This document shows, piece by piece, positions 7,883-63,230 of a DNA stretch of 64,000 nucleotides. Below the pieces are notes generated by a model. The model was not told the DNA's origin, did no database searches, and was given only the letters and a program-made list of their open reading frames with translations. The number at the start of each line of letters is the position of its first letter. Position 1 is the stretch's first letter. A program made the position numbers and the translations under genes. The stretch is taken from positions 132,850 through 196,849 of the forward strand of contig JBBQDM010000005.1 in the NCBI GenBank assembly GCA_038319675.1, in the 5' to 3' direction. The DNA comes from Vicinamibacterales bacterium (GTDB lineage: Bacteria; Acidobacteriota; Vicinamibacteria; Vicinamibacterales; SCN-69-37).

Positions 7883-9426
7883 TGTCGACGCCGCAGGAAC
7901 AACTCGCCGAGCTTGAGCGGCGGGCCGAACTCGGTGGCGGCGAAGACCGGCTGAAAAAGCAGCGCGACGCCGGAAAATTGACGGCGCGCGAACGCATCGA
8001 CCTGCTGTTTGATGCCGGCACGTTCGACGAGTTCGACAAACTGGTGACGCACCGGTGCCGTGACTTCGGCATGGAGAAGGAACTGGTGCCCGGGGACGGC
8101 GTGGTCGCGGGACAGGGCCTGGTGGATGGCCGGTCGGTCTTTGCGTTTGCGCAGGACTTCACCGTGTTCGGCGGTTCGCTCTCCGAAACCAATGCCGCGA
8201 AGATCGTCAAGGTGATGGACCTGGCGATGAAGATGGGCGCGCCGGTCGTCGGGCTGAATGACTCCGGCGGCGCGCGCATTCAGGAAGGCGTGTTGTCGCT
8301 GGCCGGGTACGCCGACATCTTTCTGCGCAACACGCTGGCGTCCGGCGTGATCCCGCAGATCTCCGCCATCATGGGGCCGTGTGCCGGTGGCGCCGTATAT
8401 TCACCGGCCATCACCGACTTCAACATCATGGTGGAAGGCACGAGCTATATGTTCGTGACCGGGCCGGATGTCATCAAGACGGTGACGCACGAAGACGTGA
8501 CGAAGGAAGAGCTCGGCGGGGCGATGACGCACAACGCCACGAGCGGTGTCGCGCATTTTGCCGTCCCCTCGGACCGCGAATGCATCCTGCTGATTCGCGA
8601 ACTGCTGGGCTACCTGCCGTCGAACAACCTGGATGATCCGCCTCGTGTGGCCACCAGTGATCCGGTGGATCGTGAAGACGACGCGCTCGATACCGTGGTG
8701 CCTGAGCAGCCCAACCAGCCGTATGACATGCACGACCTCATTCAGCTCGTGGTCGATGACGCGGCGTTTCTTGAAGTGCACCAGCACTACGCGCAGAACA
8801 TCATCACGGGATTTGCGCGACTGGGCGGCCGGTCGGTGGGCATCGTGGCGAATCAGCCGAAGGTGCTGGCGGGCTGCCTCGACATCAACGCGTCCGTGAA
8901 AGGCGCGCGGTTTGTGCGCTTCTGCGACGCGTTTAATATTCCCTTGATCACCTTTGAGGATGTGCCGGGCTTTCTGCCCGGCGTGCAACAGGAACACGCC
9001 GGCATCATTCGCGCCGGGGCAAAGCTGCTGTATGCGTACGCGGAAGCGACGGTGCCGAAGATCACCGTCATCACGCGCAAGGCCTACGGCGGCGCGTACT
9101 GCGTGATGGCCAGCAAACACATCCGCACCGACTTCAATTTTGCGTTCCCGACGGCCGAGATCGCCGTGATGGGGCCGGAAGGCGCGGTGAATGTGTTGTT
9201 CCGACGCGAACTGCAGACCGCTGAGGACCCCGTCGCACGGCGGGCCGAGCTGGTGGCCGAGTTCCGCGAAAAACTGGCCAATCCGTTTGTCGCGGCCTCG
9301 CGTGGTTTCATCGATGAAGTCATCCTGCCCCGCACCACACGCGCGCGCCTGATTGCCGCCCTCGGCAGTTGTGAGACCAAACGCGACAAAAACCCGCCGA
9401 AAAAACACGGCAATATTCCCCTGTGA
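7882..9426 (+). CDS. acyl-CoA carboxylase carboxyltransferase subunit (propionyl-CoA carboxylase beta / methylmalonyl-CoA carboxyltransferase family)
   Basis: '[21 protein letters not shown]...[32 protein letters not shown]...[13 protein letters not shown]...[13 protein letters not shown]'. 514 aa. Confidence 0.9.
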
Positions 9427-14400: not shown

Positions 14401-15634
14401 GCCCACGTACGGCGGGCAGGCGACGATCACCGATGGGCGGCTGCGACACTACTCGTTCCCGCACAGTCTCGATGCCATCAGTGGCCGAGTCGTGTTTGAC
14501 GCCACGGGTCTTCGCCTCGACGGTCTGAGTGCGAGGATGGGCACAGGTGGCCGCAGCGGCTCCGGCGACATTCAGTTTGGCGGCACGATCGGCCTTGACG
14601 GGTTCCTGCCGGGAGAACTCAATCTCACTGCCCGCGGCGATGGTCTCGACTTGCGTTTTCCGGAAGGTTTCCGCTCCATCGTGGATGCCGACCTCGCCGT
14701 GACGGGTCAGGTGGACGATGCGCTGCTCTCAGGCCGTGTGACCGTGCGTCAGGCGCGATACACACGCCGGCTCTCGGGCAATGTCGGGTTGCTCGGGCTG
14801 GCCGCCGCCGGTGGGGACGGTGTCACGATGGCCCCGACCGCGCCGATCGATCTGCCGTTGAGGTTCGCCGTCGACCTGGTCGGTCAGCGACTCACGGTGA
14901 TCGACGATGCCGACGCCACGATTATGGTGTCGCCGGACCTGCGATTCACGGGCACGCTGGCTGAGCCGCAACTGGCCGGGCGTGTGGACATCGATCGCGG
15001 GGAGACGGAGTTCCTCGGCAATCGCTACACGATTGATGGGTACGTGGACTTCACCAATCCGAACGCCATCGAGCCGTTCTTCGATATCGAGGCACGCACG
15101 CAGATTCGTCAGCCCTCGCAGGAGTACCGCATTGACCTGCGCTTCACCGGGACCATGGCGCGGTTTTCCTATGACCTGAGCTCCGACCCGCCGCTGACCC
15201 AGATGGCGGTGTTGTCGCTGATGCTCGGACAGAGTCCCGATCTGCAGCAAATGGAACTGCGCGCGATCGGGTCGCCGCAGGAGGTCCAGAACCAGCTCAT
15301 GTCATCCCTGCTCGCCCAACTGGTGACCAGCCCGATCACCTCAGAGGTGGGGCGTGTGGTCGAACGCACATTCAACGTCGACACCTTCACGGTGACGCCG
15401 TTGCTTAGTGCGGATCAGGCCCTGCAGGAGTTGCCGAACGCCCGCATCACGGTGGGTAAGAAGATCTCGAACCGGGTGTTCCTGACGTATTCGCGGTCGC
15501 TGGACAACTCCACGAGCCTGGACTACGAATTGCTGTTGCTCGAGTACGCGCAAAACGAACGCATGTCCTGGGTGCTGTCGCGCAATCAGGACGGCACGTT
15601 CGCCCTCGATTTCCGGGTGAGGTACCGGTTCTGA
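11456..15634 (+). CDS. tamB: translocation and assembly module protein TamB (DUF490 family)
   Basis: 1392 aa. Single N-terminal anchor 'VYLVAAAVAAIVVSMVTI', then a long beta-rich body. DUF490-like C-terminus '...RVFLTYSRSLDNSTSLDYELLLLEYAQNERMSWVLSRNQDGTFALDFRVRYRF'. Confidence 0.75.
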   Translation: MSHEVPASAPPAETVSAPSPGGRWWGFRRWTRRTVYLVAAAVAAIVVSMVTIDLGPQLRVRAEVFGSDYLERPMHIGAVHAELWSGRFVLEDVRIEGKTPDAEPFLTADRLLVSIPWWSLFRRDLILEIEMDGWSIQIESWEGNVHSLPRIMPRTRSDTPGLVSTTVNFVFGRDGRFRYIDHYQPWDITTENLHINVVRARNLGAYVATIGFNGGVVNIMNYEPMTLGAMSTRLTIDGGVLRVHQMDVIADGSRSRLQGTVNVDQWPVQEFAIESDLDVARLKEIFFFGQDFTASGRGAFQGTYTKLQNGAYEVHGTFTSNVLRVSGLDFPNLSGRMVWVPNRLEVVGTESTFYGGSMRLAYALDSGAGRQSIADLSMTYRGVDLIAFGRVWGWEGIALASRANGWHAMQWPSGRFADMAGEGVLRAMPADDRALADAELPAVAVYAPQEVPFLKDRVLEPQAVGGVVTYRMTPTQVTFEESWAATPETHLSFSGITGWRDNAEIPFRVVSTDWLATDRLLAGVLTAFGSKTGAVDVGGRGVFDGVLTQWFATPHIEGHFIGDGIRAWDVVWGRARADLVIQNSYVTVSNSLVGERDAEGVARMVANGRYSLGYPRADGGEQFDARIRIDDWPLVDFRHAFLLDDWPVTGTAFADLRLYGDYEGPEGFGLMRVSPGTAWEETFDAFTARASFERVGMRLDAIEVTKSTGVISGAAYTGWPSPQNNGFGTYSFTLDGERIPVESLVSFTVPDADLTGLLSFRMFGSGSNERPRYEWDGRIVDLFWGDEGIGQATAHMVVTDELMMIDRLDVASDRLSISGSGQVALNDTYDTEATLRFSETSVDPFLRFAAPGLSPYTRAVVSGAVRLSGELSNLSRLGVDLTIDKADLNLLDFTLTNPIGADGARTPLRLSFLDDVLSIRAFRLTGEATSLTLGGTVSRATEALDVSIEGTTNLAILQGVIQDVRASGNTTISARIGGTLTTPTYGGQATITDGRLRHYSFPHSLDAISGRVVFDATGLRLDGLSARMGTGGRSGSGDIQFGGTIGLDGFLPGELNLTARGDGLDLRFPEGFRSIVDADLAVTGQVDDALLSGRVTVRQARYTRRLSGNVGLLGLAAAGGDGVTMAPTAPIDLPLRFAVDLVGQRLTVIDDADATIMVSPDLRFTGTLAEPQLAGRVDIDRGETEFLGNRYTIDGYVDFTNPNAIEPFFDIEARTQIRQPSQEYRIDLRFTGTMARFSYDLSSDPPLTQMAVLSLMLGQSPDLQQMELRAIGSPQEVQNQLMSSLLAQLVTSPITSEVGRVVERTFNVDTFTVTPLLSADQALQELPNARITVGKKISNRVFLTYSRSLDNSTSLDYELLLLEYAQNERMSWVLSRNQDGTFALDFRVRYRF

Positions 15635-18528
15635 TGCGTCGTCTCCTCCTGCTTGCGTGCGGCCTGAGTCTCTGGTGGGGAGGGCTGGTGCCGGCGTCCG
15701 CCCAGCCGCCCGGCGGTGTCGCCGCTCTGCTTGGCCGGACGGTGACGGCCATCGAGATCGAGGTCGAGGGCCGGTCGGATGATGATCCCATGGTGCGGGC
15801 CCTGCTGGAGGTGCGCCTCGGTGCCCCTCTTGACGCCGGCAGCATTCGCGAGAGTGTGGCCCACCTGTTCAGCCTTGGGCTGTATGAGGATGTCGAAGTG
15901 ATCGCGACGCCGGACGCCGACGGTGTGCGGGTGGTCGTCGCGCTCACCCCGCTCCATCCGATCGACCGCATCGAATTCCGGGGCAGCCTCGGTCTGGATC
16001 GCCGTGCGCTCGAACGTGGTGTCCTGGAGCAGTTTGGCGGTCGTGCCTCGGTGGCCCGTCTGGATGCGGCGCGGGAGGCGGTGATTCGTCTCCTGCTGGA
16101 CGAAGGATTCTCACGTCCGACCGTGACGCCGTCGCTGGAACAGACGCACGACGTGCATCGGTCGACACTGGTCATGACCGTGGAGGCCGGACCACGACTG
16201 CAAATCGGCACGGTACGCACTGTGGGTGTCCATCCGCTGACGCGCGCCGAGGTCACGACCTCGGTGGGTCTCTCACCCGGAGCGCCGTACCGACAGCTCG
16301 CCACAGAAGACGCGCTTCGTCGGGTGGCGGAACGCCTGCGCGGACTGCGGTACTACGAAGCTGCCGCCAGCCATTTCGTCACACCGGTGGGCGACGATCG
16401 CGTCGACGTGACCGTCACCATTGACACCGGTCCCCTCGTGGAGATTGTCGTGGCCGGGGATCCGCTGCCACCAGGCGGGCAGGACGAGTGGATCCCGATC
16501 CGGCGTGAAAACTCCGCCGATGAAGACCTGCTCGAGGATTCGGCGTTCCGCATTCGTCAGGCGTTGCAGCGTGACGGGTACTGGCAGGCGTCGGTGGAAC
16601 AGCGCCGCGTCGAAGACCCCGATGGGGAGCGGATGGTGGTGACGTTCACGGTCCGTCGAGGGCTGCGGTACCGGCTGCACTCGATCAGTGTGACCGGCCA
16701 GCGCCATTTCGACGAACGCGACATTCGCACGCTGCTCGCGGTGTCCGACGGTGACGTGTTTGTAGAGGCGCTGGTGGAATCGCGGCTTGGGGCCGTGTTG
16801 CAGGCGTATGCGTTCTCCGGATTCAACGCGACCATTCAGTACACGGCGGAGGCCCTGCCAGGGCCGGACGGGCGTGTCGCGGTCGCGATCACGATCGTGG
16901 AAGGGCCGCTGCGGGTCGTGTCTTCGGTGACCATCACCGGAGCGCAGCAGATCACCGAGGAGGCGGTGCGCCGTGTGGTCCGGTCACAGAGTGGACAACC
17001 ACTGCGGGATGCGCAGGTGCGCGAGGATCGGCAGGCGATCATGCAGCTGTACCTGGATCGAGGGTTTCAGTCGGTGGTCGTGTCGGCACGCCAGGCGGCG
17101 CAGGCGCCGTTCGACATCACGTTCGAGATCGTCGAAGGACCCCAGACCATGGTGGACCATCTGATCGTGATTGGAAACCGGCGCGTCAGCACCGAGACGA
17201 TTCTGTCAGAGGTGGTGCTGCGCCCCGGTGAGCCGTACGGGCAGGGCGCACGGCTGGAGAGTCAACGTCGTCTGGCCGACCTGGCCACGTTTCGGCGCAT
17301 CACGATTACCGAGGCCGGCTACGGGCGCGAACGTGGGCACGTGGATGTGATCGTGCAGGTCGAAGAGGCGCCGGCGACGACCGTCGGATACGGTGGCGGA
17401 TTGGAGTTCGGCCGCCGTCTGCGTACCGCCGTGGGTGGCGGGTCGGAGGATGCGTTCCGGTTCGCGCCGCGCGGGTTTGTGGAACTGGGACGCCGCAACC
17501 TGTTCGGCACGAACCGGTCGGCGACGTTGTTCGCACGCGTCAGTCTGGGGTCACGCAACGATCCCGAGGATCCGGATCGTGATGGCCGCGGAATCGCCTT
17601 CAGTGAATATCGGGTGACGGGCACGTACCGGGCACCGCGCGCGTTTGGGTCGCGCGTGGATGGCGTGTTGAGTGCCACCGCTGAACGGGCGATTCGGACG
17701 TCGTTCACATTTGTGCGCCGGGTCGTGAATGCCGAAGGCCTGCTGCGGCCCACCACACACACAAGCGTCTTCGGCCGCTACGCGCTCGACTCGACCGAAC
17801 TGTACGACACGAGAATTCCCGAAGACGACCAGCCGCTGATCGACCGGCTCTTTCCGCAAATTCGGTTGTCCTCGGTATCTGGTGGCCTGGTCTGGGACCG
17901 TCGCGACGATCTGCTCGATCCCACTGCGGGCGGCCTGATGAGCCTCGATGGGGAAGTGGCCGCTCGTTCGCTGGGCTCCGAAGTCGGTTTTGCGAAGGTG
18001 TTTGCGCAGGCGTTTGGGTTCCGACGAATCACTCGCGTCAATCGTGTGGTGCTCGGCGGCCGCGTCCAGGTGGGGATCGCGCGTGGCTTTACCCGCGAAG
18101 TCGATATTTCGGATGGTGACGGGCGCACGGAACTGGTCGCGGACCTGCCGGCCGGTCGGCGATTCTTCGCCGGCGGCAGCACGACGGTGAGAGGGTTCCA
18201 GCAGGATCGACTTGGTGTGCCCGGCGTCATCAATCAGGATGGCTTGTCGAGCGGTGGCAATGGCGTGATTGTCCTCAACGGCGAAGTGCGCACGCAGCTG
18301 TGGACCAACATTGCCGTGGTGGGTTTTCTGGACGGCGGCAACGTGTTTGCGCGAGCTGGCGACATGTCGTTGCGCGAGTTGCGAGGGGCCGCCGGGTTTG
18401 GCCTCCGTTATCGATCCCCACTCGGCCCGCTGCGACTGGATGTCGGCTTCAAGCTCGACCGTCGTCTTGTGAGCGGCAAACGGGAACGGGGGTGGGAGTT
18501 CCACCTGAGCATTGGTGAGGTCTTCTGA
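15634..18528 (+). CDS. bamA: Omp85-family outer membrane protein assembly factor (BamA-like, multi-POTRA)
   Basis: 964 aa with a signal peptide. Repeated POTRA-like units ('I..IEIEVEGR', 'IDRIEFRG', 'ISVTGQRHFDE', 'VTITGAQQITE', 'LIVIGNRRVSTE'). Barrel with 'GRRNLFGTNRS' and C-terminal '...GFGLRYRSPLGPLRLDVGFKL...HLSIGEVF'. TGATG overlap with tamB. Confidence 0.8.
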   Translation: MRRLLLLACGLSLWWGGLVPASAQPPGGVAALLGRTVTAIEIEVEGRSDDDPMVRALLEVRLGAPLDAGSIRESVAHLFSLGLYEDVEVIATPDADGVRVVVALTPLHPIDRIEFRGSLGLDRRALERGVLEQFGGRASVARLDAAREAVIRLLLDEGFSRPTVTPSLEQTHDVHRSTLVMTVEAGPRLQIGTVRTVGVHPLTRAEVTTSVGLSPGAPYRQLATEDALRRVAERLRGLRYYEAAASHFVTPVGDDRVDVTVTIDTGPLVEIVVAGDPLPPGGQDEWIPIRRENSADEDLLEDSAFRIRQALQRDGYWQASVEQRRVEDPDGERMVVTFTVRRGLRYRLHSISVTGQRHFDERDIRTLLAVSDGDVFVEALVESRLGAVLQAYAFSGFNATIQYTAEALPGPDGRVAVAITIVEGPLRVVSSVTITGAQQITEEAVRRVVRSQSGQPLRDAQVREDRQAIMQLYLDRGFQSVVVSARQAAQAPFDITFEIVEGPQTMVDHLIVIGNRRVSTETILSEVVLRPGEPYGQGARLESQRRLADLATFRRITITEAGYGRERGHVDVIVQVEEAPATTVGYGGGLEFGRRLRTAVGGGSEDAFRFAPRGFVELGRRNLFGTNRSATLFARVSLGSRNDPEDPDRDGRGIAFSEYRVTGTYRAPRAFGSRVDGVLSATAERAIRTSFTFVRRVVNAEGLLRPTTHTSVFGRYALDSTELYDTRIPEDDQPLIDRLFPQIRLSSVSGGLVWDRRDDLLDPTAGGLMSLDGEVAARSLGSEVGFAKVFAQAFGFRRITRVNRVVLGGRVQVGIARGFTREVDISDGDGRTELVADLPAGRRFFAGGSTTVRGFQQDRLGVPGVINQDGLSSGGNGVIVLNGEVRTQLWTNIAVVGFLDGGNVFARAGDMSLRELRGAAGFGLRYRSPLGPLRLDVGFKLDRRLVSGKRERGWEFHLSIGEVF

Positions 18529-19022
18529 TGGGCGTGCTCGCGGGTAGTCTTCTCGTGGTGTGCGCGTGGTCGGCGCAGGCGCAGGTGCCGGTGTCGACGA
18601 CCATGGACCGCATTGTGGCCGTGGTCAACAACGACATCATCACGCTGTCGGATGTTCGGTCGGCGCGGCTGCTGCAGTTGGTGCCCTCGACCGACACCGA
18701 CGACACGATCGTGCGGACACTGGTGGACCGTCGGTTGGTGTTGACCGAGATGCGCCGCTTCCAGGCGCCTGAGCCCGCGCGTGAGGTGGTGGCTGCCCGC
18801 GTTCAGGCCTGGGAGGCGACGTTGGGCGGCGCGGACCCGGCGGCACTCGCCACCTCTGCGGGCGTGTCGCTGACGTTTGTGGAACGATGGCTGGCCGACG
18901 ATCTGCGACGCGAGACGTACCTGCAGCAGCGGTTCGCCGCCCTGGATGGCGACCGGCGCGCAGAGGCGATTCGGGGCTGGATCGACGGCCTGCGCACTCG
19001 CGCGGATATCGTGTATCGCTAG
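18528..19022 (+). CDS. SurA N-terminal-domain-like periplasmic chaperone
   Basis: Signal peptide followed by 'MDRIVAVVNNDIITLSDVRSARLL', the typical SurA_N start. 164 aa with no parvulin domain. TGATG overlap with bamA. Confidence 0.5.
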   Translation: MGVLAGSLLVVCAWSAQAQVPVSTTMDRIVAVVNNDIITLSDVRSARLLQLVPSTDTDDTIVRTLVDRRLVLTEMRRFQAPEPAREVVAARVQAWEATLGGADPAALATSAGVSLTFVERWLADDLRRETYLQQRFAALDGDRRAEAIRGWIDGLRTRADIVYR

Positions 19023-19030
19023 GCCCGCGC

Positions 19031-19208
19031 GGGTTCCTAGTTCCTGGTTCCTGGTTCCGCGGTGCTGTTCTGGGTTCCTGGTGCCGGGTTCGTGGTTAGG
19101 GGTTCCAGGTCGTTGCTGGGTTCAGGGACGCAGGCACCAGAACACGGAACCCCGCACCCGAGAACCCAGAACAGCACCGCGGAACCATGAACCGATGAAC
19201 CATGAACC
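19031..19208. repeat. ~178-nt imperfect palindrome composed of degenerate GGTTCC(N) heptamers and their complement
   Basis: The left half has about 10 tandem units (gggttcc tagttcc tggttcc tggttcc ...). The right half has the complement (ggaacc / gaacc units). Perfect 25-bp core arms: ggttccgcggtgctgttctgggttc (19053-19077) / gaacccagaacagcaccgcggaacc (19162-19186). Flanks and interior pair imperfectly. It lies in the convergent spacer between the surA-like gene and the glyco-operon. Confidence 0.75.
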
Positions 19209-19221
19209 GCCCGGCCAGGCG

Positions 19222-21180
19222 CTACCGCTTTTGAATCCTGACGTACTCGAGCGCGGCCGCGAGGCGGCGACCGTCCGCGCCGCCCACATCGACCGGCCGC
19301 GTGTCACGACCAAACTGCAGGGTGAGGTGGTTGACGCCCGCGTGCCAGCTGTTCGCCTCCGTTGCGATCTCGAGCCGATGCCAACCGCTGGTGACCGGCA
19401 CCGTGGCAAGCGCGTGACCGTTGACCTCGACGGTCAGCGTCTGTGGTGCCAACCCTTCAGCCTCGAACGGCATCAGCTGAATCTGTAGCCAGAGCGGAGC
19501 CGCGTCGGCGAGGGGCAGCACCAGTGATGCGCGGGCTTCCACCCATCGGAACGTCGTCGCCCCCGCTCGTTCAGCACCATGCCAGCCGGTGCCGATGTAG
19601 TCGGTGTCATCAGCGCCGATGTCGATGCGGCCGTACGGTCGTGCCGGATCACCAAGAAAACGATTCGGACGCAGACGATCAAACCGATCCGGCGTCACGC
19701 CGTTGGCAATCGCCCAGATGATGTTCGCGGGAAATGACGGGACATGTCCCACCCAGCTATGCGCGATGGCAGCCTGACCGGCAGCGAGATCGCCGTAGGA
19801 CACGATCTGCCCGATGCGATACGCGCCGGAACGCGCCACACCCATCAACGTCACATTCCAGACAACGAGCACACCGAGTAGAGCGGCCGCAGTCAGACCA
19901 GGACGCCGCCGGACGGCCTCGGTGACGGCCATCGACAGCGCGGCAAAACCGGCGATGAGAAACGGGATCAGACTGTCGAATCGTCGCCCGCCATAACTGG
20001 CACCCGCCCACCAGTCCTCCACCGCGCCGTTGGTCCACGTCATGAGCACGAGCGTGAGCAGGCCGGTGAGTGCGAGCACGCGATGGCGTCGCCAAAGGCA
20101 AACGAGTCCGATTGCACCCGCATAGGCGGCTGGTGATGTGGCGAACAGGCCGCTGCGTGACGACCACAACACATCCACCCACTGCGCCTGCATCCACAAC
20201 AGACGCGGACTGACGGGAGGTTGCGTGATCCAGGCGCCGTACAACGCATGCCACGTCCAGAGCTGCGGCCACGTGCCGACAAAGACACCGGCCGCCAGGG
20301 CAGCGGCCAGTCGTGGCTGACGGAGCAGCCCGGCAGCTGGCACCAGGAGGATGACGGCGTTCTGCCACCGCATGATCACCATCACGCCGCCGAGTAGTCC
20401 GAGCAGAGCCCATGTGCGCCAGTCCGTGGACGTGCGCCACCGCAACCACGCCCACGTAAACGCGGCGACGGAGGCCATCGACACTGAATGGCTCATGGTG
20501 GGTTCGCGCACGAGATACCAGAGCACAAACGTGCCTCCGCCGATGGCCACCACTGCGAGGGTGGCGATCGACGCCGGCGCGATCAGGCGTGTGATGCGAT
20601 ACGACCACCACAGACCGAGCAGGCCGTAGAAGAGCCCCGCGAGGCACACCGCTTGTCGATACGGATACGACGTGCCGTCAGTGGAGACGTCCACTCCATT
20701 GCCAGCGAGCAGATGCGCGGCGATGTGGCCCACGCTGAAGAAAGGTGCCCACGCTAACGCGGGTCCGATGGCCCACGCACTCTGCGCGTACCCCGTGACG
20801 GTGGGTTCGAGCAAAAACTGGTGCTGCGCGTCGTCGATCCCCAACATCGCGTAGTCGTTGGTGAGGTTGAGGTCGCGGTCAAACCACATTGAGCGTGTAA
20901 ACGCGTAGTAGTAAAATCCGTCACTCTGCAGCCGCGCACCCAGTTGCAACTGGCCGGCGATTCCGGCTGCGTAGAGCGCGAGCAAGACGGCGGCTGTGCG
21001 TGCGCGTCGCGTGGCTCGGGCGATGACGAGGGCCGCACCCAGAACCGCCACAACAACCGCCCACCAGGGAGACAGGTCCGCTGCGGTGGTCACCCATTCA
21101 AGCAGCGATCGGCGCGCCAGTTGGCGCCCGACGAGGTCGCCGAGACCCAGTGTGATCGCGATCCAGCCGGCCCACATCAT
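19222..21180 (-). CDS. polytopic GT-C-like membrane protein with C-terminal beta-sandwich-like domain (paralog A)
   Basis: 652 aa, at least 10 hydrophobic segments. First-loop motif 'RLQSDGFYYYAFTRSMWFDRDLNLTNDY' is shared with 21177..23180 and 30648..31997. The soluble C-terminal ~150 aa ('GRIDIGADDTDYIGTGWHGAE...TFRWV...') is paralogous to the C-terminus of 21177..23180. Confidence 0.6.
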   Translation of the reverse strand: MMWAGWIAITLGLGDLVGRQLARRSLLEWVTTAADLSPWWAVVVAVLGAALVIARATRRARTAAVLLALYAAGIAGQLQLGARLQSDGFYYYAFTRSMWFDRDLNLTNDYAMLGIDDAQHQFLLEPTVTGYAQSAWAIGPALAWAPFFSVGHIAAHLLAGNGVDVSTDGTSYPYRQAVCLAGLFYGLLGLWWSYRITRLIAPASIATLAVVAIGGGTFVLWYLVREPTMSHSVSMASVAAFTWAWLRWRTSTDWRTWALLGLLGGVMVIMRWQNAVILLVPAAGLLRQPRLAAALAAGVFVGTWPQLWTWHALYGAWITQPPVSPRLLWMQAQWVDVLWSSRSGLFATSPAAYAGAIGLVCLWRRHRVLALTGLLTLVLMTWTNGAVEDWWAGASYGGRRFDSLIPFLIAGFAALSMAVTEAVRRRPGLTAAALLGVLVVWNVTLMGVARSGAYRIGQIVSYGDLAAGQAAIAHSWVGHVPSFPANIIWAIANGVTPDRFDRLRPNRFLGDPARPYGRIDIGADDTDYIGTGWHGAERAGATTFRWVEARASLVLPLADAAPLWLQIQLMPFEAEGLAPQTLTVEVNGHALATVPVTSGWHRLEIATEANSWHAGVNHLTLQFGRDTRPVDVGGADGRRLAAALEYVRIQKR

Positions 21181-36100: not shown

Positions 36101-36162
36101 GGCCACCCCTCGATGATCCCCTGTGCGGACCGCGGACTGCGTACTGCGTGTATGCTCTCGCA

Positions 36163-59301: not shown

Positions 59302-61005
59302 TCATTTTGGACCGGCCGCGCCCCCCGTCCACCGTGGCTCAGCCACACCGGATGTCAGGCCACCGGGGATGGTGTCGACTGCGTGGACGCGCCCAAAAAA
59401 TCCTGCAGGAGAGGGGACCAGCGTGAAGCCCCACGCCGTCAGCAGCGCACGATCGCCGGCCGACCACGCCGACAGCGGTCCTTCCTCGACGCGCAGTGTG
59501 CGTTCGGCATCCGGGTGGACGCGTGGGGCCAACATCGCCTCAGCGAGTGTCATTCGGTGATCCACCATCCGACTGATCACCTGGATGACCGCCGAGAGGA
59601 TGCGCGAGTCGCCCGCACCACCAAGCGCCACGACACGCCGCCCATCGGGAGCGATGACGATGGTCGGGGAGACGGTGGAGGTGGGTCGTGATCCGGGAAC
59701 GGTGCCGAGTCGCGTGGCAAACAGGAATCCCAGACCGGGCGCGACCAGACGCGTCCCCATGCTTGGCCCCAGCGACTGCGTGAGCGTGACCACACGGCCA
59801 TCTGCATCCGCGACCGACAGATGCGTCGTGGCTTCACGATCGTCCGGGGCTGAGACGAGTGTGCCTGGGGGAAACAGCAACCCTGCGCCCTGGAAAGGAG
59901 CGGCGTTGCGAAACGTGCCTGGGTCCACGCGCGGAGGCATGACCACGCGTGCGGCTCGGGCGGCGGCGTGGTCGAGCGACGTGAGAAAGGCGGCGCTCTG
60001 GGCTTCGGTGCCCCGGCGCATCGACCGATCAGTCAACGCCCAATGCATGGCCTGTCCGATCACGGCCGCCCATCGCGCATCGTCACCACGCGCCGGCACT
60101 TCGAGTCGTTCGAGTGTGTGCAGGGCCTGGACAACGGCCTGTCCTGCCGCAGGACGGAAGTTGGCGTGGATGTCATGGCCTCGATAGGTGCCGCGCACCG
60201 GCAGCGCAGGAAGAGCGCGATACGCGGCGAGATCCGCACGCCGCACGAACCCGCCATGGGCGCGCATGTCCGCGTCGATGGCGTCGGCGATCGCACCGCG
60301 ATAAAACGCGTCCACGCCGTCAGAGGCGAGTACACGCAGGGTGGCAGCCAACTGGGGATTGGCGACCCGCTCGCCGGCCCGCCAGACCGAGCCGTCGGCT
60401 TTGAGGTACGTGCCGCGCCCTCCGCCGAACGTCGCGAGTGGCTCACGCGCGGCCGCCCAGCGGTCGGCTTCTGCCGCGCCGAGGATGAATCCGTGTGTCG
60501 CCAGATCGATCGCCGGTTGCAACACTCGTGCGAGGGGCCACGTGCCGTGGGCGTCCAACACATGCGCCAGTGCGGCCGGTACGCCGGGAATCGTGGCGCG
60601 TTCGTACGGTTCGGGAATGCCCGACTTCTCCACGTAGATCGACGGCACCTGGTTCAGACCGTCGATGCCCACGATCGTGCCGTCCGGCTCACGCAGCAGA
60701 ATGCTGGCACGTCCGCCAAGCCCGGACATGCTGGGTTCGGTGACGGCCAGCGCAAATGCCGTGGCGACGGCGGCATCCACGGCATTGCCCCCCTGCGCCA
60801 GCACATGCGCGCCGACAGCCGTGGCCTCCACCGTGGCGCTGGCAACAACGCCACGGGCGGACTGGGCGATCTGGGCGGCAGGATGTGTAATCGCCGAGTC
60901 GGCCGCGACGGTTCTCTGCGTCCCGCTCGTCAGGGAGCCGGCACAACCAGAGGCCAACAGGCCCCCCAGCAGAAGCAACAGCGGGTGCCGAAGGCGGTGC
61001 AGCAT
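59302..61005 (-). CDS. ggt: gamma-glutamyltransferase
   Basis: 'GGNAVDAAVATAFALAVTEPSMSGLGGR', autoprocessing site 'DDREATTHLSVADADGRVVTLTQSLG', 'GGAGDSRI'. Lipobox 'LLGGLLASGC'. Start at ATG 61005. The ORF start at 61107 is rejected. Confidence 0.9.
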   Translation of the reverse strand: MLHRLRHPLLLLLGGLLASGCAGSLTSGTQRTVAADSAITHPAAQIAQSARGVVASATVEATAVGAHVLAQGGNAVDAAVATAFALAVTEPSMSGLGGRASILLREPDGTIVGIDGLNQVPSIYVEKSGIPEPYERATIPGVPAALAHVLDAHGTWPLARVLQPAIDLATHGFILGAAEADRWAAAREPLATFGGGRGTYLKADGSVWRAGERVANPQLAATLRVLASDGVDAFYRGAIADAIDADMRAHGGFVRRADLAAYRALPALPVRGTYRGHDIHANFRPAAGQAVVQALHTLERLEVPARGDDARWAAVIGQAMHWALTDRSMRRGTEAQSAAFLTSLDHAAARAARVVMPPRVDPGTFRNAAPFQGAGLLFPPGTLVSAPDDREATTHLSVADADGRVVTLTQSLGPSMGTRLVAPGLGFLFATRLGTVPGSRPTSTVSPTIVIAPDGRRVVALGGAGDSRILSAVIQVISRMVDHRMTLAEAMLAPRVHPDAERTLRVEEGPLSAWSAGDRALLTAWGFTLVPSPAGFFGRVHAVDTIPGGLTSGVAEPRWTGGAAGPK

Positions 61006-61040
61006 GCCGGCTATTCTACGGGCCCTCACGACGCTACAGT

Positions 61041-63230
61041 ATGGGCGTGAACAAACACCTGTGGCGGTTGAGCGTCGGTGTGGTGGCATGGCTGCTCGTG
61101 TCTGCACCGGTGTCTGTCGGGCAGTCAGACCCCGAGTTGTGGAGGCAGGTCGAAATCATTCGGACCGCCCACGGCGTGCCGCACATCCGGGCCGAGAATC
61201 TGCGGGCGGGCGGCTATGCGCTGGGATGGTTGCAGGTCGAAGACCACGGGGAGGCGACCCCTCTTCGGCTCTGGGCCACCCGCGGACAGACGGCCCGCAT
61301 CGATGGACGCTCCGGGCTCACCGCTGATTTCAACGCGTTGCGCGAGCGCGATCGTGCGATCGAAACATTGCATCTGCTCGAACCTGAGACGCGCGATCTG
61401 TACGATGGATTCGCCGCGGGTGTGAACCGCTACATCACCCTGCATCGCGACCAGTTTGCCGCACACATTCCGGCCGACTTCACCGGCTACGACGTGGCGA
61501 CGCTGCACATCGGTGATGGGCCTCCCGCTGCGCGTGTGCGGCGTGTGTTGCAGACAATTGAGGCTGGATCGGTGGCCGAGGAGTGGCTCGACGCCGATGT
61601 CGAGACACCACGGACCGATGAGGATGGATCAAACGCCTGGGCGCTGGCTCCGAGTCGCACCAGGTCGGGCAAGGCCATCCTGCTCCGTAATCCGCATCTG
61701 GCCTGGAGCGCGGGGTACTACGAAGCGCACCTCACCGTGCCGGGCGTCATGGATTTTTATGGCGACTTCCGCATCGGGGGACCGCTTGGCGTCATCGGCG
61801 GCTTCAACCGGTACCTCGGCTGGTCCACCACCAACAGCAATACCGGTGACCGTACCGAGATCTATGCCGTGCCTCTCGATCCTGAGCGTCCCGATCGTTA
61901 CAGGCTGGATGGTGCGAGCCTGCCCCTGACGCAGGTCACACGCACCGTGGAATACCTCGACGGGGGCGTGCTCGTGCCGGAGACGCGCGAGTTCTGGTCG
62001 ACGCCACTCGGGCCTGTCGTGCATCGAACGTCGGACACGGTGTACATCGCCCGCACCGCTGGAGATGGCGAGTTCCGCGCCGGCGAACAGTTTCTGCGTC
62101 TGATGCGTGCCACGTCCCTTGATCAGTGGATCTCGGTGATGCGGACGCGCGCACTCGTGTCGCAAAACTACACGTACGCCGATCGTGCCGGCAACATTCT
62201 GGTGTTGTGGAACGCCTCGTTGCCGCTGCTGCCGCACGAGATGGGTGGGGACACAGCGGTGCCGGCGACACGCCTGCGTGACATGTGGACCCAGTATCTG
62301 CCGTTTGAGGCACTGCCCCTCATGTTCAACCCGCGCGGCGGCTACGTGCACAACGAGAACGATTCCCCACACTTTGCCAACGTTCGGCAGCCGATCAACT
62401 TGGTGAACGCGTATCCCAACATGGAGCCGCCGATGCTCCGCCTCCGGAGCCAACTGGGGATTCAGCTGATCGATCACAACCGCAAGCTGAGCCTGGAAGA
62501 TGTCGTGCGGATCAAACACGACTACCGCATGTTGCTCGCCGATCGCGTGAAGCCGGATCTGCTGACGGCCTTGGCTGCGGTGCCTGTGACCGGAAGCGTG
62601 GCGGACGCGGCGCAGGTGCTGCGTCGCTGGAACAACACCGCCGCAGCCGAGAGCCGCGGAGCCGTGTTGTTCGACATCTGGTGGTCGCGGTACTCACAGG
62701 ACCGAAGCGAGGCCGAACAGTTCGCGCACCCCTGGTCCGAGACTGACCCGTTGACGACTCCGCGCGGACTCGCTGATCCGATACGTGCGGTCGAAGCGTT
62801 GACCTGGGCTGTTGCCGAAACGACACGCCGTCATGGTGCCGTGGACGTGGCGTGGGGGGATGTCCATCGCGTCCGCCGAGGCGCAGTGGACGTGCCAGTC
62901 GGTGGTTGCCCAGGCCGTCTCGGTTGCTTCCGCGTGCTCGGGTTCACGAGGCAGGACGATGGCAAGTATGCGGCGACGACCGGTGATGGATGGGTGCTGG
63001 CCGTGGAATTTGGCGACGAGCCGAAAGCGTACTCGGTGCTCGCCTACGGCCAAAGCGCGAAGCCCGACTCACCGTGGCACGCCGATCAGGCCGAGATGTT
63101 CGCGCGCGGCGAGATGAAACGTGTGGCTTTCAGTGCCCGCGATGTGGATCGCCAGGCAGTCGTTCGGTATCGCCCCGGCCAACACCCGGGCGTGTCTACC
63201 GTGGTGCCGCCAGCGTCAGTACGGCGCTGA
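61041..63230 (+). CDS. penicillin-acylase-family Ntn hydrolase (possible acyl-homoserine-lactone acylase)
   Basis: 'IIRTAHGVPHIRAENL', nucleophile context 'EDGSNAWALAPSRTRSGKAILLRNPHL', 'YEAHL', 'GGYVHNENDSP'. Confidence 0.85.
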   Translation: MGVNKHLWRLSVGVVAWLLVSAPVSVGQSDPELWRQVEIIRTAHGVPHIRAENLRAGGYALGWLQVEDHGEATPLRLWATRGQTARIDGRSGLTADFNALRERDRAIETLHLLEPETRDLYDGFAAGVNRYITLHRDQFAAHIPADFTGYDVATLHIGDGPPAARVRRVLQTIEAGSVAEEWLDADVETPRTDEDGSNAWALAPSRTRSGKAILLRNPHLAWSAGYYEAHLTVPGVMDFYGDFRIGGPLGVIGGFNRYLGWSTTNSNTGDRTEIYAVPLDPERPDRYRLDGASLPLTQVTRTVEYLDGGVLVPETREFWSTPLGPVVHRTSDTVYIARTAGDGEFRAGEQFLRLMRATSLDQWISVMRTRALVSQNYTYADRAGNILVLWNASLPLLPHEMGGDTAVPATRLRDMWTQYLPFEALPLMFNPRGGYVHNENDSPHFANVRQPINLVNAYPNMEPPMLRLRSQLGIQLIDHNRKLSLEDVVRIKHDYRMLLADRVKPDLLTALAAVPVTGSVADAAQVLRRWNNTAAAESRGAVLFDIWWSRYSQDRSEAEQFAHPWSETDPLTTPRGLADPIRAVEALTWAVAETTRRHGAVDVAWGDVHRVRRGAVDVPVGGCPGRLGCFRVLGFTRQDDGKYAATTGDGWVLAVEFGDEPKAYSVLAYGQSAKPDSPWHADQAEMFARGEMKRVAFSARDVDRQAVVRYRPGQHPGVSTVVPPASVRR

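What the first reader, a model, noticed from the sequence alone, without database searches (positions are those of the whole stretch)
19031..19208. Large palindrome built from tandem GGTTCC-type heptamers and their complement
The spacer between two convergent operons is almost entirely one ~178-nt imperfect hairpin with a perfect 25-bp core (19053-19077 / 19162-19186). Each arm is also internally periodic. The left arm has about 10 degenerate 7-nt units (gGGTTCC, taGTTCC, tGGTTCC, tGGTTCC ...) and the right arm has the complementary (G)GAACC units (...cGGAACC atGAACC gatGAACC atGAACC). A palindrome made of short tandem repeats differs from a simple terminator and from classic REP or MITE architecture. 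It lacks a U-tract. It could be a genome-wide dispersed element, a protein-binding array such as a regulator or nucleoid-protein landing pad, or a structured RNA.
Basis: seen in the sequence. Interest (0 to 1): 0.6.

Follow-up and report, generated by a model that had tools for sequence, protein, structure and literature searches.

The report
Gene-less heptamer-armed hairpin repeat
The 178-base hairpin between two convergent operons is one of about 55 scattered copies of a repeat built from GGTTCAT-type 7-base words. Full-length relatives carry a small Avd-like "23S rRNA intervening-sequence" gene in the loop, so this copy looks like the empty shell of a little-understood insertable cassette, not a terminator or an RNA gene.

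Summary
Window 19031-19208 is a 178-nt imperfect hairpin (about -126 kcal/mol on either strand, z = -9) with a perfect 25-bp core and 7-nt periodic arms.

It is not unique. The 4.1-Mb genome (an Acidobacteriota/Vicinamibacteria MAG, per earlier notes) holds about 59 related loci. About 30 are full hairpins and the rest are single arms, mostly just after stop codons and enriched between convergent genes.

In relatives the two flanking genes overlap with no spacer, so the element is an insertion. I found no target-site duplication, no matching transposase and no reverse transcriptase. The genome's two RAYT genes carry other REPs.

The same arms bracket a PF05635 (Avd-like, 23S-rRNA-IVS-protein) gene in this genome and in five relatives. 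Only genomes with that gene's orthologue have the hairpin family. A cassette site filled in two relatives is empty (6-nt spacer) in this genome.

Across the bacterial family, 40 of 49 PF05635 genes have mirrored word-array flanks, against 1 of 394 control ORFs. The Xanthomonas GGGAATC repeats flank the PF05635 gene XCC0516 in the same way.

This scan has seen the gene-plus-arms module and gene-less hairpins before, in other genomes. How the element moves and what the protein does remain inferred.

The parts
19031..19208 (.). Whole element: a gene-less ('solo') GGTTCAT-family palindromic repeat of 178 nt
   Evidence: Sequence; fold z = -9.3; homologous to about 59 loci in the genome
19031..19117 (+). 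Left arm: about 12 degenerate 7-nt units (GGTTCCT, GGTGCTG, GGGTTCC ...)
   Evidence: TRF period 7, 19032-19097; fold; aligned with 23 other copies
19118..19123 (.). Apical loop of the predicted hairpin. In gene-bearing relatives a sigma-54-type promoter and a PF05635 gene sit at this position.
   Evidence: cassettes
19124..19208 (+). Right arm: complementary GAACC-type units ending in GAACCATGAACCGATGAACCATGAACC
   Evidence: TRF 19137-19172 and 19182-19208; fold
19053..19077 (+). Perfect 25-bp core, left half. It contains the non-repetitive signature CCGCGGTGCTGTTC shared by most copies.
19162..19186 (+). Perfect 25-bp core, right half
18528..19022 (+). Upstream 164-aa ORF (no Pfam hit; N-terminus resembles SurA-N by eye), last gene after the BamA-like gene 15634-18528. 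Its stop is 8 nt before the element.
   Evidence: Orthologues in 10 same-genus genomes. In G010 and G012 it overlaps the convergent gene by 13 nt with no spacer.
19222..21180 (-). Convergent 652-aa ORF, last gene of the glycan operon noted earlier. Its stop is 13 nt after the element.

Best explanation
The hairpin is a gene-less copy of a dispersed family of inverted 'word-array' elements. Full-length members carry a small Avd-like four-helix-bundle gene (PF05635, the '23S rRNA intervening-sequence protein' family) with its own sigma-54-type promoter in the loop. This copy was inserted into what had been a zero-length or overlapping junction between two convergent genes, and both genes gained new stop codons. 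It is non-coding. I read it as a non-autonomous selfish repeat, related to its gene-bearing cassette as REPINs are to RAYT genes or MITEs to IS elements, and tolerated only in 3' intergenic spacers.

Shown: the family and its copy number; insertion relative to relatives; the arms-gene link; co-occurrence of solo copies with the cognate gene across genomes; a filled versus empty site for the cassette; no target duplication.

Inferred: (a) that copies are made by a trans-acting machinery which needs the cognate PF05635 protein as the word-reading specificity factor (about 35% likely); (b) that, once transcribed from either operon, the long stem acts as an RNase III-type processing or end-protecting structure, as the stems of rRNA intervening sequences do (about 30% likely).
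For: The family:
- BLAST of the element against its own genome gives 59 merged loci, 35 of them at least 110 nt long. They share termini CGGTTCATGGTTC(A/C)T(C)GGTTCATGGTTCCGCGGTGCTGTTC and a conserved centre GGGTTCAGGGTCGGTGC.
- A word scan finds 100 GGTTC arrays, forming 30 hairpin pairs.

Position:
- 21 of 56 loci lie between convergent genes, against 18.7% of all intergenic gaps (p = 8e-4). Most lie 0-25 nt from a stop codon.

Insertion:
- In G010 and G012 the orthologous convergent genes overlap by 13 nt with no spacer.

Gene link:
- The G000 PF05635 gene at C30:8736-9152 lies between GGTTCAT elements.
- The element's BLAST hits in G009, G014 (two sites), G011 and G015 bracket PF05635 genes.
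- In G009:L047 and G014:L063 the layout is left arm, promoter, gene, right arm.

Co-occurrence:
- Orthologues at 61% identity or more occur only in G009, G011, G012, G014 and G015. The five genomes with 10 or more hairpin matches all have one, and none of 14 others does (Fisher p = 5e-4, but kin are not independent).
- A second vocabulary behaves the same way. GTGCGAA arrays number 412, 178 and 139 in G008, G010 and G012, which are exactly the genomes where a PF05635 gene has GTGCG arms.
- A third, GGGGTCC, mostly does so as well.

Cassette as an insert:
- The G014/G011 cassette site is empty in G000 (TGA-CGAGAC-TCA at C10:60650-60657).

Generality:
- 40 of 49 PF05635 loci in the GTDB family have inverted flank scores of 40 or more, against 1 of 394 control ORFs.
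- For 72 loci from about 25 phyla the median is 38, against 18.8 for shuffled flanks. These include Xanthomonas vasicola with GGGAATC arms.
- Rehm 2015, supplementary file 2, lists a GGGAATC repeat overlapping the start of XCC0516, the PF05635 protein of PDB entry 2GSC.
Against: - No movement was observed.
- Copies are old or fast-evolving: median pairwise identity is 73% and the maximum 90%.
- There is no target-site duplication (flank longest-common-substring 3.17 against 3.09 for permuted pairs).
- No enzyme is known or predicted. PF05635 is a small helical bundle with no known catalytic residues.
- No reverse transcriptase was found in the assembly, so a DGR-like route is not supported.
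- The most abundant heptamer vocabulary in this genome (CCGCAGT/CCGCGGT, 46 arrays) has no PF05635 partner.
- Four genomes hold GGGGTCC arrays without a detected partner. Three of those four assemblies are highly fragmented (260-660 contigs).
- The rpsB-tsf spacer holds a hairpin in six species but with three different vocabularies. This could mean that selection keeps a hairpin at that site, not that elements move freely.
- Arms and gene are inherited together, so part of the word-protein match is trivial.
Confidence: 0.6

Rival explanations
1. It is a cis-regulatory landing pad. The word arrays are binding sites for a sequence-specific multimeric protein (the PF05635 ring itself, a sigma-54 enhancer-binding protein or a nucleoid protein). 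The dispersed copies form a regulon that tunes termination or mRNA stability at operon ends. Spread is secondary.
For: - Arrays are periodic 7-nt words with 4-5 well-conserved outer units per arm.
- PDB entry 2GSC holds five chains of the PF05635 protein.
- PF05635 genes in this lineage carry a sigma-54-type promoter (strict motif in 18 of 52 loci, against 0.0025 expected per 140 nt).
- Aklujkar 2009 (PMC2700814) proposed that paired word arrays in Geobacter are binding sites for a global regulator.
- The same rpsB-tsf spacer keeps a hairpin across species.
Against: - Copies share 170 nt of homology, including non-word sequence and a conserved centre. That indicates copying, not convergence on a binding site.
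- Sites are not conserved between species: the window's site is empty in G010 and G012.
- No binding data exist.
- This rival overlaps with the best explanation and does not exclude it.
Confidence: 0.17
2. It is a REPIN-type element moved by a RAYT (IS200/IS605-like Y1 transposase) acting on the hairpin in single-stranded DNA.
For: - The genome has two Y1_Tnp genes (C5:217.5 kb and 223.1 kb).
- Lack of a target duplication fits Y1 transposition.
- The extragenic 3' location and hairpin shape resemble REPINs.
- The better-folding strand is biased to the C-rich strand, 22 to 9 (p = 0.03, copies not independent).
Against: - Both RAYT genes are flanked by their own, unrelated REP palindromes (AAAACCTTTCGGGTAGGTTTTTCC and GACGTCGGGTGTCTTTTC). 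No GGTTCAT arm lies near either.
- The arms are far longer than REPs and are made of tandem words.
- The gene actually bracketed by the arms is PF05635, not a RAYT.
Confidence: 0.08
3. It is a classical MITE: a deletion derivative of a DDE-transposase insertion sequence, moved in trans through its terminal inverted repeats.
For: It has long terminal inverted repeats, many copies and a patchy distribution within the genus.
Against: - There is no target-site duplication.
- No pair of arms brackets a transposase. The only wider bracketed ORFs are PF05635 and, between two separate hairpins, tsf.
- The arms are tandem arrays of variable unit number, unlike IS ends.
Confidence: 0.06
4. It is only an oversized bidirectional terminator or RNA-stabilising hairpin that arose and is kept locally. 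Family resemblance would come from gene conversion or slippage, not insertion.
For: - It sits exactly between two convergent operons and forms a very stable stem on both strands.
- The family is enriched at convergent junctions.
- The rpsB-tsf spacer has a hairpin in six species.
Against: - There is no U-tract or consensus terminator.
- In tandem contexts the sense strand is not the better-folding one: 7 of 19 copies, and 40 G.U pairs on the sense strand against 75 on the antisense.
- Homologous copies on more than 20 contigs share non-repetitive signatures.
- The relatives manage this junction with no spacer at all.
Confidence: 0.07

Closest known systems
Xanthomonas GGGAATC heptamer repeats, including 70-75 convergent (inverted) pairs per genome (Rehm et al. 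2015, PMC4692102)
   Same: - Both are tandem 7-nt words, dispersed and mainly intergenic.
- Both lie close to stop codons, are under-represented between divergent genes, and often occur as inverted pairs able to form stem-loops.
- Their repeat #15 abuts XCC0516, a PF05635 gene. The X. vasicola orthologue has GGGAATC arrays on both sides.
   Different: - The word here (GGTTCAT) has no G-triplets, so the G-quadruplex reading does not transfer.
- The arms here are about 85 nt long, with a conserved non-word core and centre, so whole copies are alignable homologues.
- The paper found no link to mobile elements and names no gene family.
Paired 'global regulator binding sites' of Geobacter metallireducens (Aklujkar et al. 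2009, PMC2700814)
   Same: They are dispersed pairs of sites on opposite strands. Each site is 3-5 tandem repeats of a 7-9-nt word, several vocabularies occur in one genome, and the sites are absent from the sister species.
   Different: They were interpreted as IHF/HU or unknown regulator sites, with no gene partner named. Sequence and lineage are unrelated to the element here.
ORF-bearing intervening sequences of 23S rRNA (Coxiella burnetii IVS with S23p; Leptospira) (Warrier et al. 2016, PMC4990558)
   Same: The gene-bearing relatives of this hairpin have the same build. A PF05635-family ORF sits in the loop of a long stem made by terminal inverted repeats. That paper regards the element as selfish, and cites an earlier proposal that the ORF served mobility.
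   Different: - This copy has no ORF and is not in rRNA. It lies between protein-coding operons.
- RNase III cutting is shown for the IVS but is untested here.
- No 23S gene is present in this assembly to compare.
REP/REPIN elements with their RAYT genes
   Same: The genetic logic matches. One or two protein genes per genome are flanked by the same inverted repeats that occur gene-less in dozens of extragenic copies. Different paralogues go with different repeats, and there is no target duplication.
   Different: The bracketed gene is a four-helix bundle, not a Y1 transposase. The arms are tandem word arrays, not 20-40-nt REPs. The real RAYTs of this genome have other REPs.
Cyanobacterial STRR heptanucleotide repeats and Beggiatoaceae TAACTGA repeats (MacGregor 2015, PMC4679880)
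   Same: They are abundant intergenic tandem heptamers of unknown function with a patchy phylogenetic spread.
   Different: They are mostly one-sided direct arrays, often upstream of start codons, and not long palindromes. The one-sided CCGCAGT and GGAGGAT arrays of this genome are closer to them than the element studied here.

Membership tests
Dispersed inverted heptamer-array repeats (Xanthomonas/Geobacter type) | Arms made of tandem 7-9-nt words | tested here: met
   TRF period 7 on both arms; units are visible in all copies
Dispersed inverted heptamer-array repeats (Xanthomonas/Geobacter type) | Many copies per genome, mainly intergenic, with two arrays in convergent orientation | tested here: met
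   59 loci and 30 hairpin pairs. 53 of 56 loci lie outside called genes, and convergent junctions are enriched.
Dispersed inverted heptamer-array repeats (Xanthomonas/Geobacter type) | G-quadruplex-forming G-tracts (at least GGG x 4), as claimed for GGGAATC | tested here: not met
   The outer word GGTTCAT has only GG. This is a feature of that paper's interpretation, not of the architecture.
PF05635 ('IVS-protein'/Avd-like) cassette with word-array arms | Arms homologous to those bracketing a PF05635 gene in the same genome | tested here: met
   C30:8569-8696 and 9157-9227 flank the PF05635 ORF 8736-9152. The same holds in G009, G011, G014 (two sites) and G015.
PF05635 ('IVS-protein'/Avd-like) cassette with word-array arms | PF05635 ORF present in the loop | tested here: not met
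   The loop of the window copy is 6 nt, and the whole element has no ORF of its own. It is therefore a gene-less derivative, not a cassette.
23S rRNA intervening sequence | Located in a 23S rRNA helix and excised by RNase III | tested here: not met
   It lies between protein-coding genes. No 23S gene is in the assembly. RNase III cutting cannot be tested with these tools.
REP/REPIN-RAYT | A RAYT gene flanked by the same repeat | tested here: not met
   The two Y1_Tnp genes are flanked by other palindromes
MITE | Target-site duplication | tested here: not met
   Longest common substring between flanks is 3.17, against 3.09 for permuted pairs (p = 0.29)
MITE | Related autonomous IS with the same terminal repeats | tested here: not met
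   No arm pair brackets a transposase in this draft assembly of 47 contigs
Intrinsic (Rho-independent) terminator | Short GC-rich stem followed by a U-tract | tested here: not met
   No terminator-like site in 18400-19800 on either strand
Known RNA family (Rfam 15) | Match to a covariance model | tested here: not met
   Only chance-level hits outside the element

The most novel reading that the evidence does not exclude
PF05635 (Avd-like, 23S-IVS) proteins are the sequence-reading partners of the short-word arrays that flank them. Each paralogue recognises its own 7-9-nt word and, with host enzymes, spreads or maintains gene-less word-array hairpins across the genome. This would be a RAYT/REPIN-like partnership built on a non-catalytic helical-bundle ring. 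One mechanism would then explain rRNA intervening sequences, Xanthomonas GGGAATC repeats, Geobacter 'regulator sites', perhaps cyanobacterial STRRs, and the hairpin studied here.
Probability: 0.3. Interest if true: 0.85.

Novelty: new variant of a known kind. Interest (0 to 1): 0.58.

Why it matters
Tandem heptamer repeats have been catalogued in print, with no agreed function or origin: paired word arrays in Geobacter (2009) and GGGAATC repeats in Xanthomonas (2015); cyanobacterial STRRs are older still by my recollection. The small ORF inside 23S rRNA intervening sequences has also long lacked a known function.

In this genus the dispersed hairpins and the ORF family are two forms of one element. 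The gene-bearing form inserts between genes, and each repeat vocabulary tends to occur only where a gene copy with matching arms is present.

This gives a direct test: does the PF05635 protein bind its own word array? It also gives annotators a rule for large "orphan" palindromes in soil metagenome genomes. For this window the practical message is that the spacer is selfish DNA sitting between the ends of an outer-membrane biogenesis operon and a glycan operon. It is not a gene or a classical terminator.

Tried and rejected
- **Rfam scan of the region:** nothing relevant.
- **RAYT hypothesis:** two Y1 transposase genes were found, but each has its own REPs.
- **Target-site duplication and palindromic flank extension:** no signal against permuted flanks.
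- **RNA-level selection:**
  - The sense strand does not fold better than the antisense strand.
  - RNAalifold on 24 copies found 24 invariant pairs and no compensatory change. The inner arms are too gappy to judge.
- **G.U polarity:**
  - It is real (199 against 47 once copies are oriented by homology).
  - It is partly inherited, for example the GCTGTTC/GAACGGC pair.
  - Its relation to gene direction (14 to 5, p = 0.06) and to GC skew (22 to 9, p = 0.03, copies clustered) is weak.
  - I could not tie the favoured strand to the sense strand of PF05635; alignment scores were mixed.
- **Retro-mobility through an Avd-RT pair:** no RVT_1 gene in the assembly.
- **Partner gene for the CCGCAGT arrays:** none found.
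- **Cross-phylum search with a 12-sequence PF05635 alignment:** It was replaced by a single-protein search with XCC0516.
- **Literature:** searches for PF05635, TIGR02436 and IVS protein plus repeats found no paper making the gene-array link.

Full report
**What is there.**
- The 25-nt stretch 19053-19077 is exactly complementary to 19162-19186, inside a 43-nt arm pair of 86% complementarity.
- Folded alone, 19020-19220 gives -126.3 kcal/mol on the + strand and -128.2 on the - strand. Dinucleotide shuffles give about -81 +/- 5 (z about -9.3; no shuffle of 200 folds as well).
- The apical loop is at 19118-19123.
- Tandem Repeats Finder confirms the 7-nt period on both arms.
- The element fills the 199-nt gap between two stop codons. 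One ends a 164-aa ORF that follows a BamA-like gene.
- There is no U-tract, no consensus terminator or promoter, and no Rfam match.

**It is a family, not a one-off.**
- The window lies in a 4.13-Mb, 47-contig, 64% GC genome. Earlier notes place it in Acidobacteriota, class Vicinamibacteria.
- BLAST of the element against this genome gives 59 merged loci on more than 20 contigs. Thirty-five are at least 110 nt long and fold as hairpins of about -0.64 kcal/mol per nt. The rest are single arms.
- A word scan finds 100 GGTTC arrays, 30 of them paired as hairpins.
- Copies share the outer arm CGGTTCATGGTTC(A/C)T(C)GGTTCATGGTTCCGCGGTGCTGTTC, including the non-repetitive CCGCGGTGCTGTTC, and a centre motif GGGTTCAGGGTCGGTGC. 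They are therefore homologues and not look-alikes.
- Median pairwise identity is 73% and the maximum 90%, so nothing suggests a recent burst.
- The window holds only this one copy.

**Where copies sit.**
- I used a crude GC3-based gene call (3112 genes). Under it, 21 of 56 loci lie between convergent genes, against 18.7% of all gaps (p = 8e-4). Twenty-seven lie between co-directional genes and 8 between divergent ones. Most are 0-25 nt from a stop codon.
- In G010 and G012 the orthologues of the two flanking genes overlap by 13 nt (...CGC GAT CAG CGT TTC TGA, with the other gene's TCA inside). The element is therefore an insertion in this lineage, and both genes now end in new TAG codons.

**What does not move it.**
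- Flanks show no target duplication and no palindromic extension beyond chance.
- No arm pair brackets a transposase.
- The genome has two RAYT-type Y1 transposase genes, but each is flanked by its own unrelated REP doublets.
- No reverse transcriptase was found.

**The gene link.** I tested this here.
- The genome has two PF05635 genes.
  - One, at C30:8736-9152, lies between a GGTTCAT hairpin (8569-8696) and a GGTTCAT right arm (9157-9227).
  - The other, on C32, lies between (GGGGGAT)n and (ATCCCCC)n arrays.
- In same-genus genomes, the BLAST hits of the window element bracket PF05635 genes at G009:C11:1370891, G014:C1:49510, G014:C1:57097, G011:C389:2619 and G015:C4:85798.
- In G009 and at the second G014 site the order is left arm, promoter-like motif, gene, right arm.
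- Orthologues of the C30 protein at 61% identity or more occur only in G009, G011, G012, G014 and G015. All five genomes with 10 or more hairpin matches (G000, G009, G011, G014, G015) have the gene or an orthologue, and none of 14 others does. Kin are not independent, so this is a pattern and not a statistical proof.

**The cassette is itself an insert.** The flanks of the G014 (L063) and G011 (L046) cassette match G000:C10:59991-60650 and 60657-61283. In G000 the two convergent genes are separated by only TGA-CGAGAC-TCA. In G014 about 680 bp of arms plus gene lie in that gap. This is the same kind of site as the window's.

**Generality.**
- Among 49 PF05635 loci with enough flank, drawn from the GTDB family, the local alignment score between the upstream flank and the reverse complement of the downstream flank has a median of 73, and 40 score at least 40. 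For 394 random small ORFs of this genome the median is 20 and one scores at least 40.
- The word differs with the protein subfamily (GGTTCAT, GTGCGAA, GGGTGCTC, GGGGTCCA, GGGTCCA, GGGGTTCC and others). Paralogues in one genome carry different words.
- Two further vocabularies track their gene.
  - GTGCGAA arrays number 412, 178 and 139 in G008, G010 and G012, and at most 34 elsewhere. Those three genomes hold the PF05635 genes with GTGCG arms.
  - GGGGTCC arrays follow their paralogue in most genomes, but four genomes have arrays without a detected gene. Three of those four assemblies are highly fragmented (260-660 contigs).
- The rule is not perfect. The commonest heptamer of this genome, CCGCAGT/CCGCGGT, has 46 mostly one-sided arrays and no partner gene.

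**Bridge to the literature.**
- The only solved structure matching the C30 protein is 2GSC, XCC0516 of Xanthomonas campestris. A review notes that PF05635 resembles the DGR accessory protein Avd (PMC10053308).
- Xanthomonas is the organism of the published GGGAATC heptamer repeats. Supplementary file 2 of that paper lists repeat #15 overlapping the start of XCC0516 (PMC4692102).
- A scan of species genomes with XCC0516 returned 80 loci from about 25 phyla. For the 72 with full flanks the inverted-flank score has a median of 38, against 18.8 for shuffled flanks and 20.5 for direct orientation. The X. vasicola orthologue has GGGAATC arrays on both sides.
- Geobacter metallireducens has dispersed pairs of 3-5 tandem 7-9-nt words that were read as regulator sites (PMC2700814).
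- The Coxiella 23S intervening sequence is a PF05635-family ORF in a stem of terminal inverted repeats cut by RNase III. It has been proposed to have been mobile (PMC4990558).
- I found no paper linking the gene family to the dispersed arrays.
- This scan has reported the module and gene-less hairpins several times in other genomes. Later checks put the 'mobile insert' reading at about 40-50%.

**How it may work.**
- Shown: it is an inserted, non-coding, gene-less member of a family whose full form carries PF05635.
- Inferred: spread needs a trans factor. The cognate PF05635 protein is the obvious candidate for reading the words, because arms and solo copies share vocabulary genome by genome. 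It has no known catalytic activity, and no movement was seen.
- A role at RNA level is possible but unsupported.
  - In co-directional contexts the mRNA-sense strand is not the better folder: 7 of 19 copies, with 40 G.U pairs on the sense strand against 75 on the antisense.
  - Conserved pairs show no compensatory changes.
- One oddity remains. When copies are oriented by homology, G.U wobbles fall on one strand (199 against 47; 30 copies against 2). This is partly inherited from the master sequence, and I could not tie it firmly to transcription, replication or the PF05635 sense strand.

**Limits.**
- Gene calls are my own crude ones.
- The genome is a draft.
- The genomes compared are related to one another.

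Noticed in passing
L030 (G000:C5:217346-218376) and L031 (G000:C5:222925-223955), 20-27 kb beyond the window's right end: Two RAYT-type Y1 transposase genes of about 230-245 aa. Each is flanked on both sides by its own REP-like palindromes: AAAACCTTTCGGGTAGGTTTTTCC for one, and GACGTCGGGTGTCTTTTC doublets for the other. These would be two separate REP/RAYT systems in an acidobacterium. Copy numbers of these REPs were not counted.
   Followed up: partly
Upstream of PF05635 genes, e.g. L043:1475-1491 (G000:C30), L047, L063, L064, L050, L071: A sigma-54-type -24/-12 element (TGGCAC-N5-xTGC[T/A]) lies 25-45 nt before the start codon. The strict motif occurs in 18 of 52 loci, against 0.0025 expected per 140 nt, and looser versions occur in most of the others. 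A TGCA-N6-TGCA-like palindrome often lies further upstream. This suggests enhancer-dependent expression of this gene family in Vicinamibacteria.
   Followed up: partly
G000:C11:36547-36685 and the rpsB-tsf spacers in L184-L188: The rpsB-tsf spacer holds a word-array hairpin in six species, but with different words. G000 has GGTTCAT, G009/G011/G014/G015 have GGCAATG, and G012 has GGGAAAT. G000 has a second GGTTCAT hairpin after tsf that the others lack.
   Followed up: partly
window 36122-36148: A short (GGACYGC)3-4 array just upstream of a gene start. It belongs to the commonest heptamer vocabulary of the genome (CCGCAGT/CCGCGGT, 46 arrays of at least 3 units). These arrays are mostly one-sided, and no PF05635 partner was found.
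   Followed up: partly
window 64000 onward (G000:C5:196849-196900): An (ATCC[C/T]CC)n array starts at the window's last base. It uses the same vocabulary as the arms around the second PF05635 gene (G000:C32:16694-17153). There are 13 such arrays in the genome.
   Followed up: partly
35 full copies genome-wide, e.g. G000:C9:29336-29471 and C14:59405-59552: Single copies are strongly one-sided in wobble pairs (10 against 0, 9 against 0, 0 against 10). After orientation by homology, 199 G.U pairs fall on one strand and 47 on the other. The left arm (about 95 nt) is much better conserved than the inner right arm.
   Followed up: yes
G014:C1 (L063, reverse-complemented, about 2007-2043) and G011 (L046): Directly outside the right arm of the PF05635 cassette lies a further short array, (GGTTCCA)3, in left-arm orientation. 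It may be the remnant of a neighbouring or nested element.
   Followed up: no
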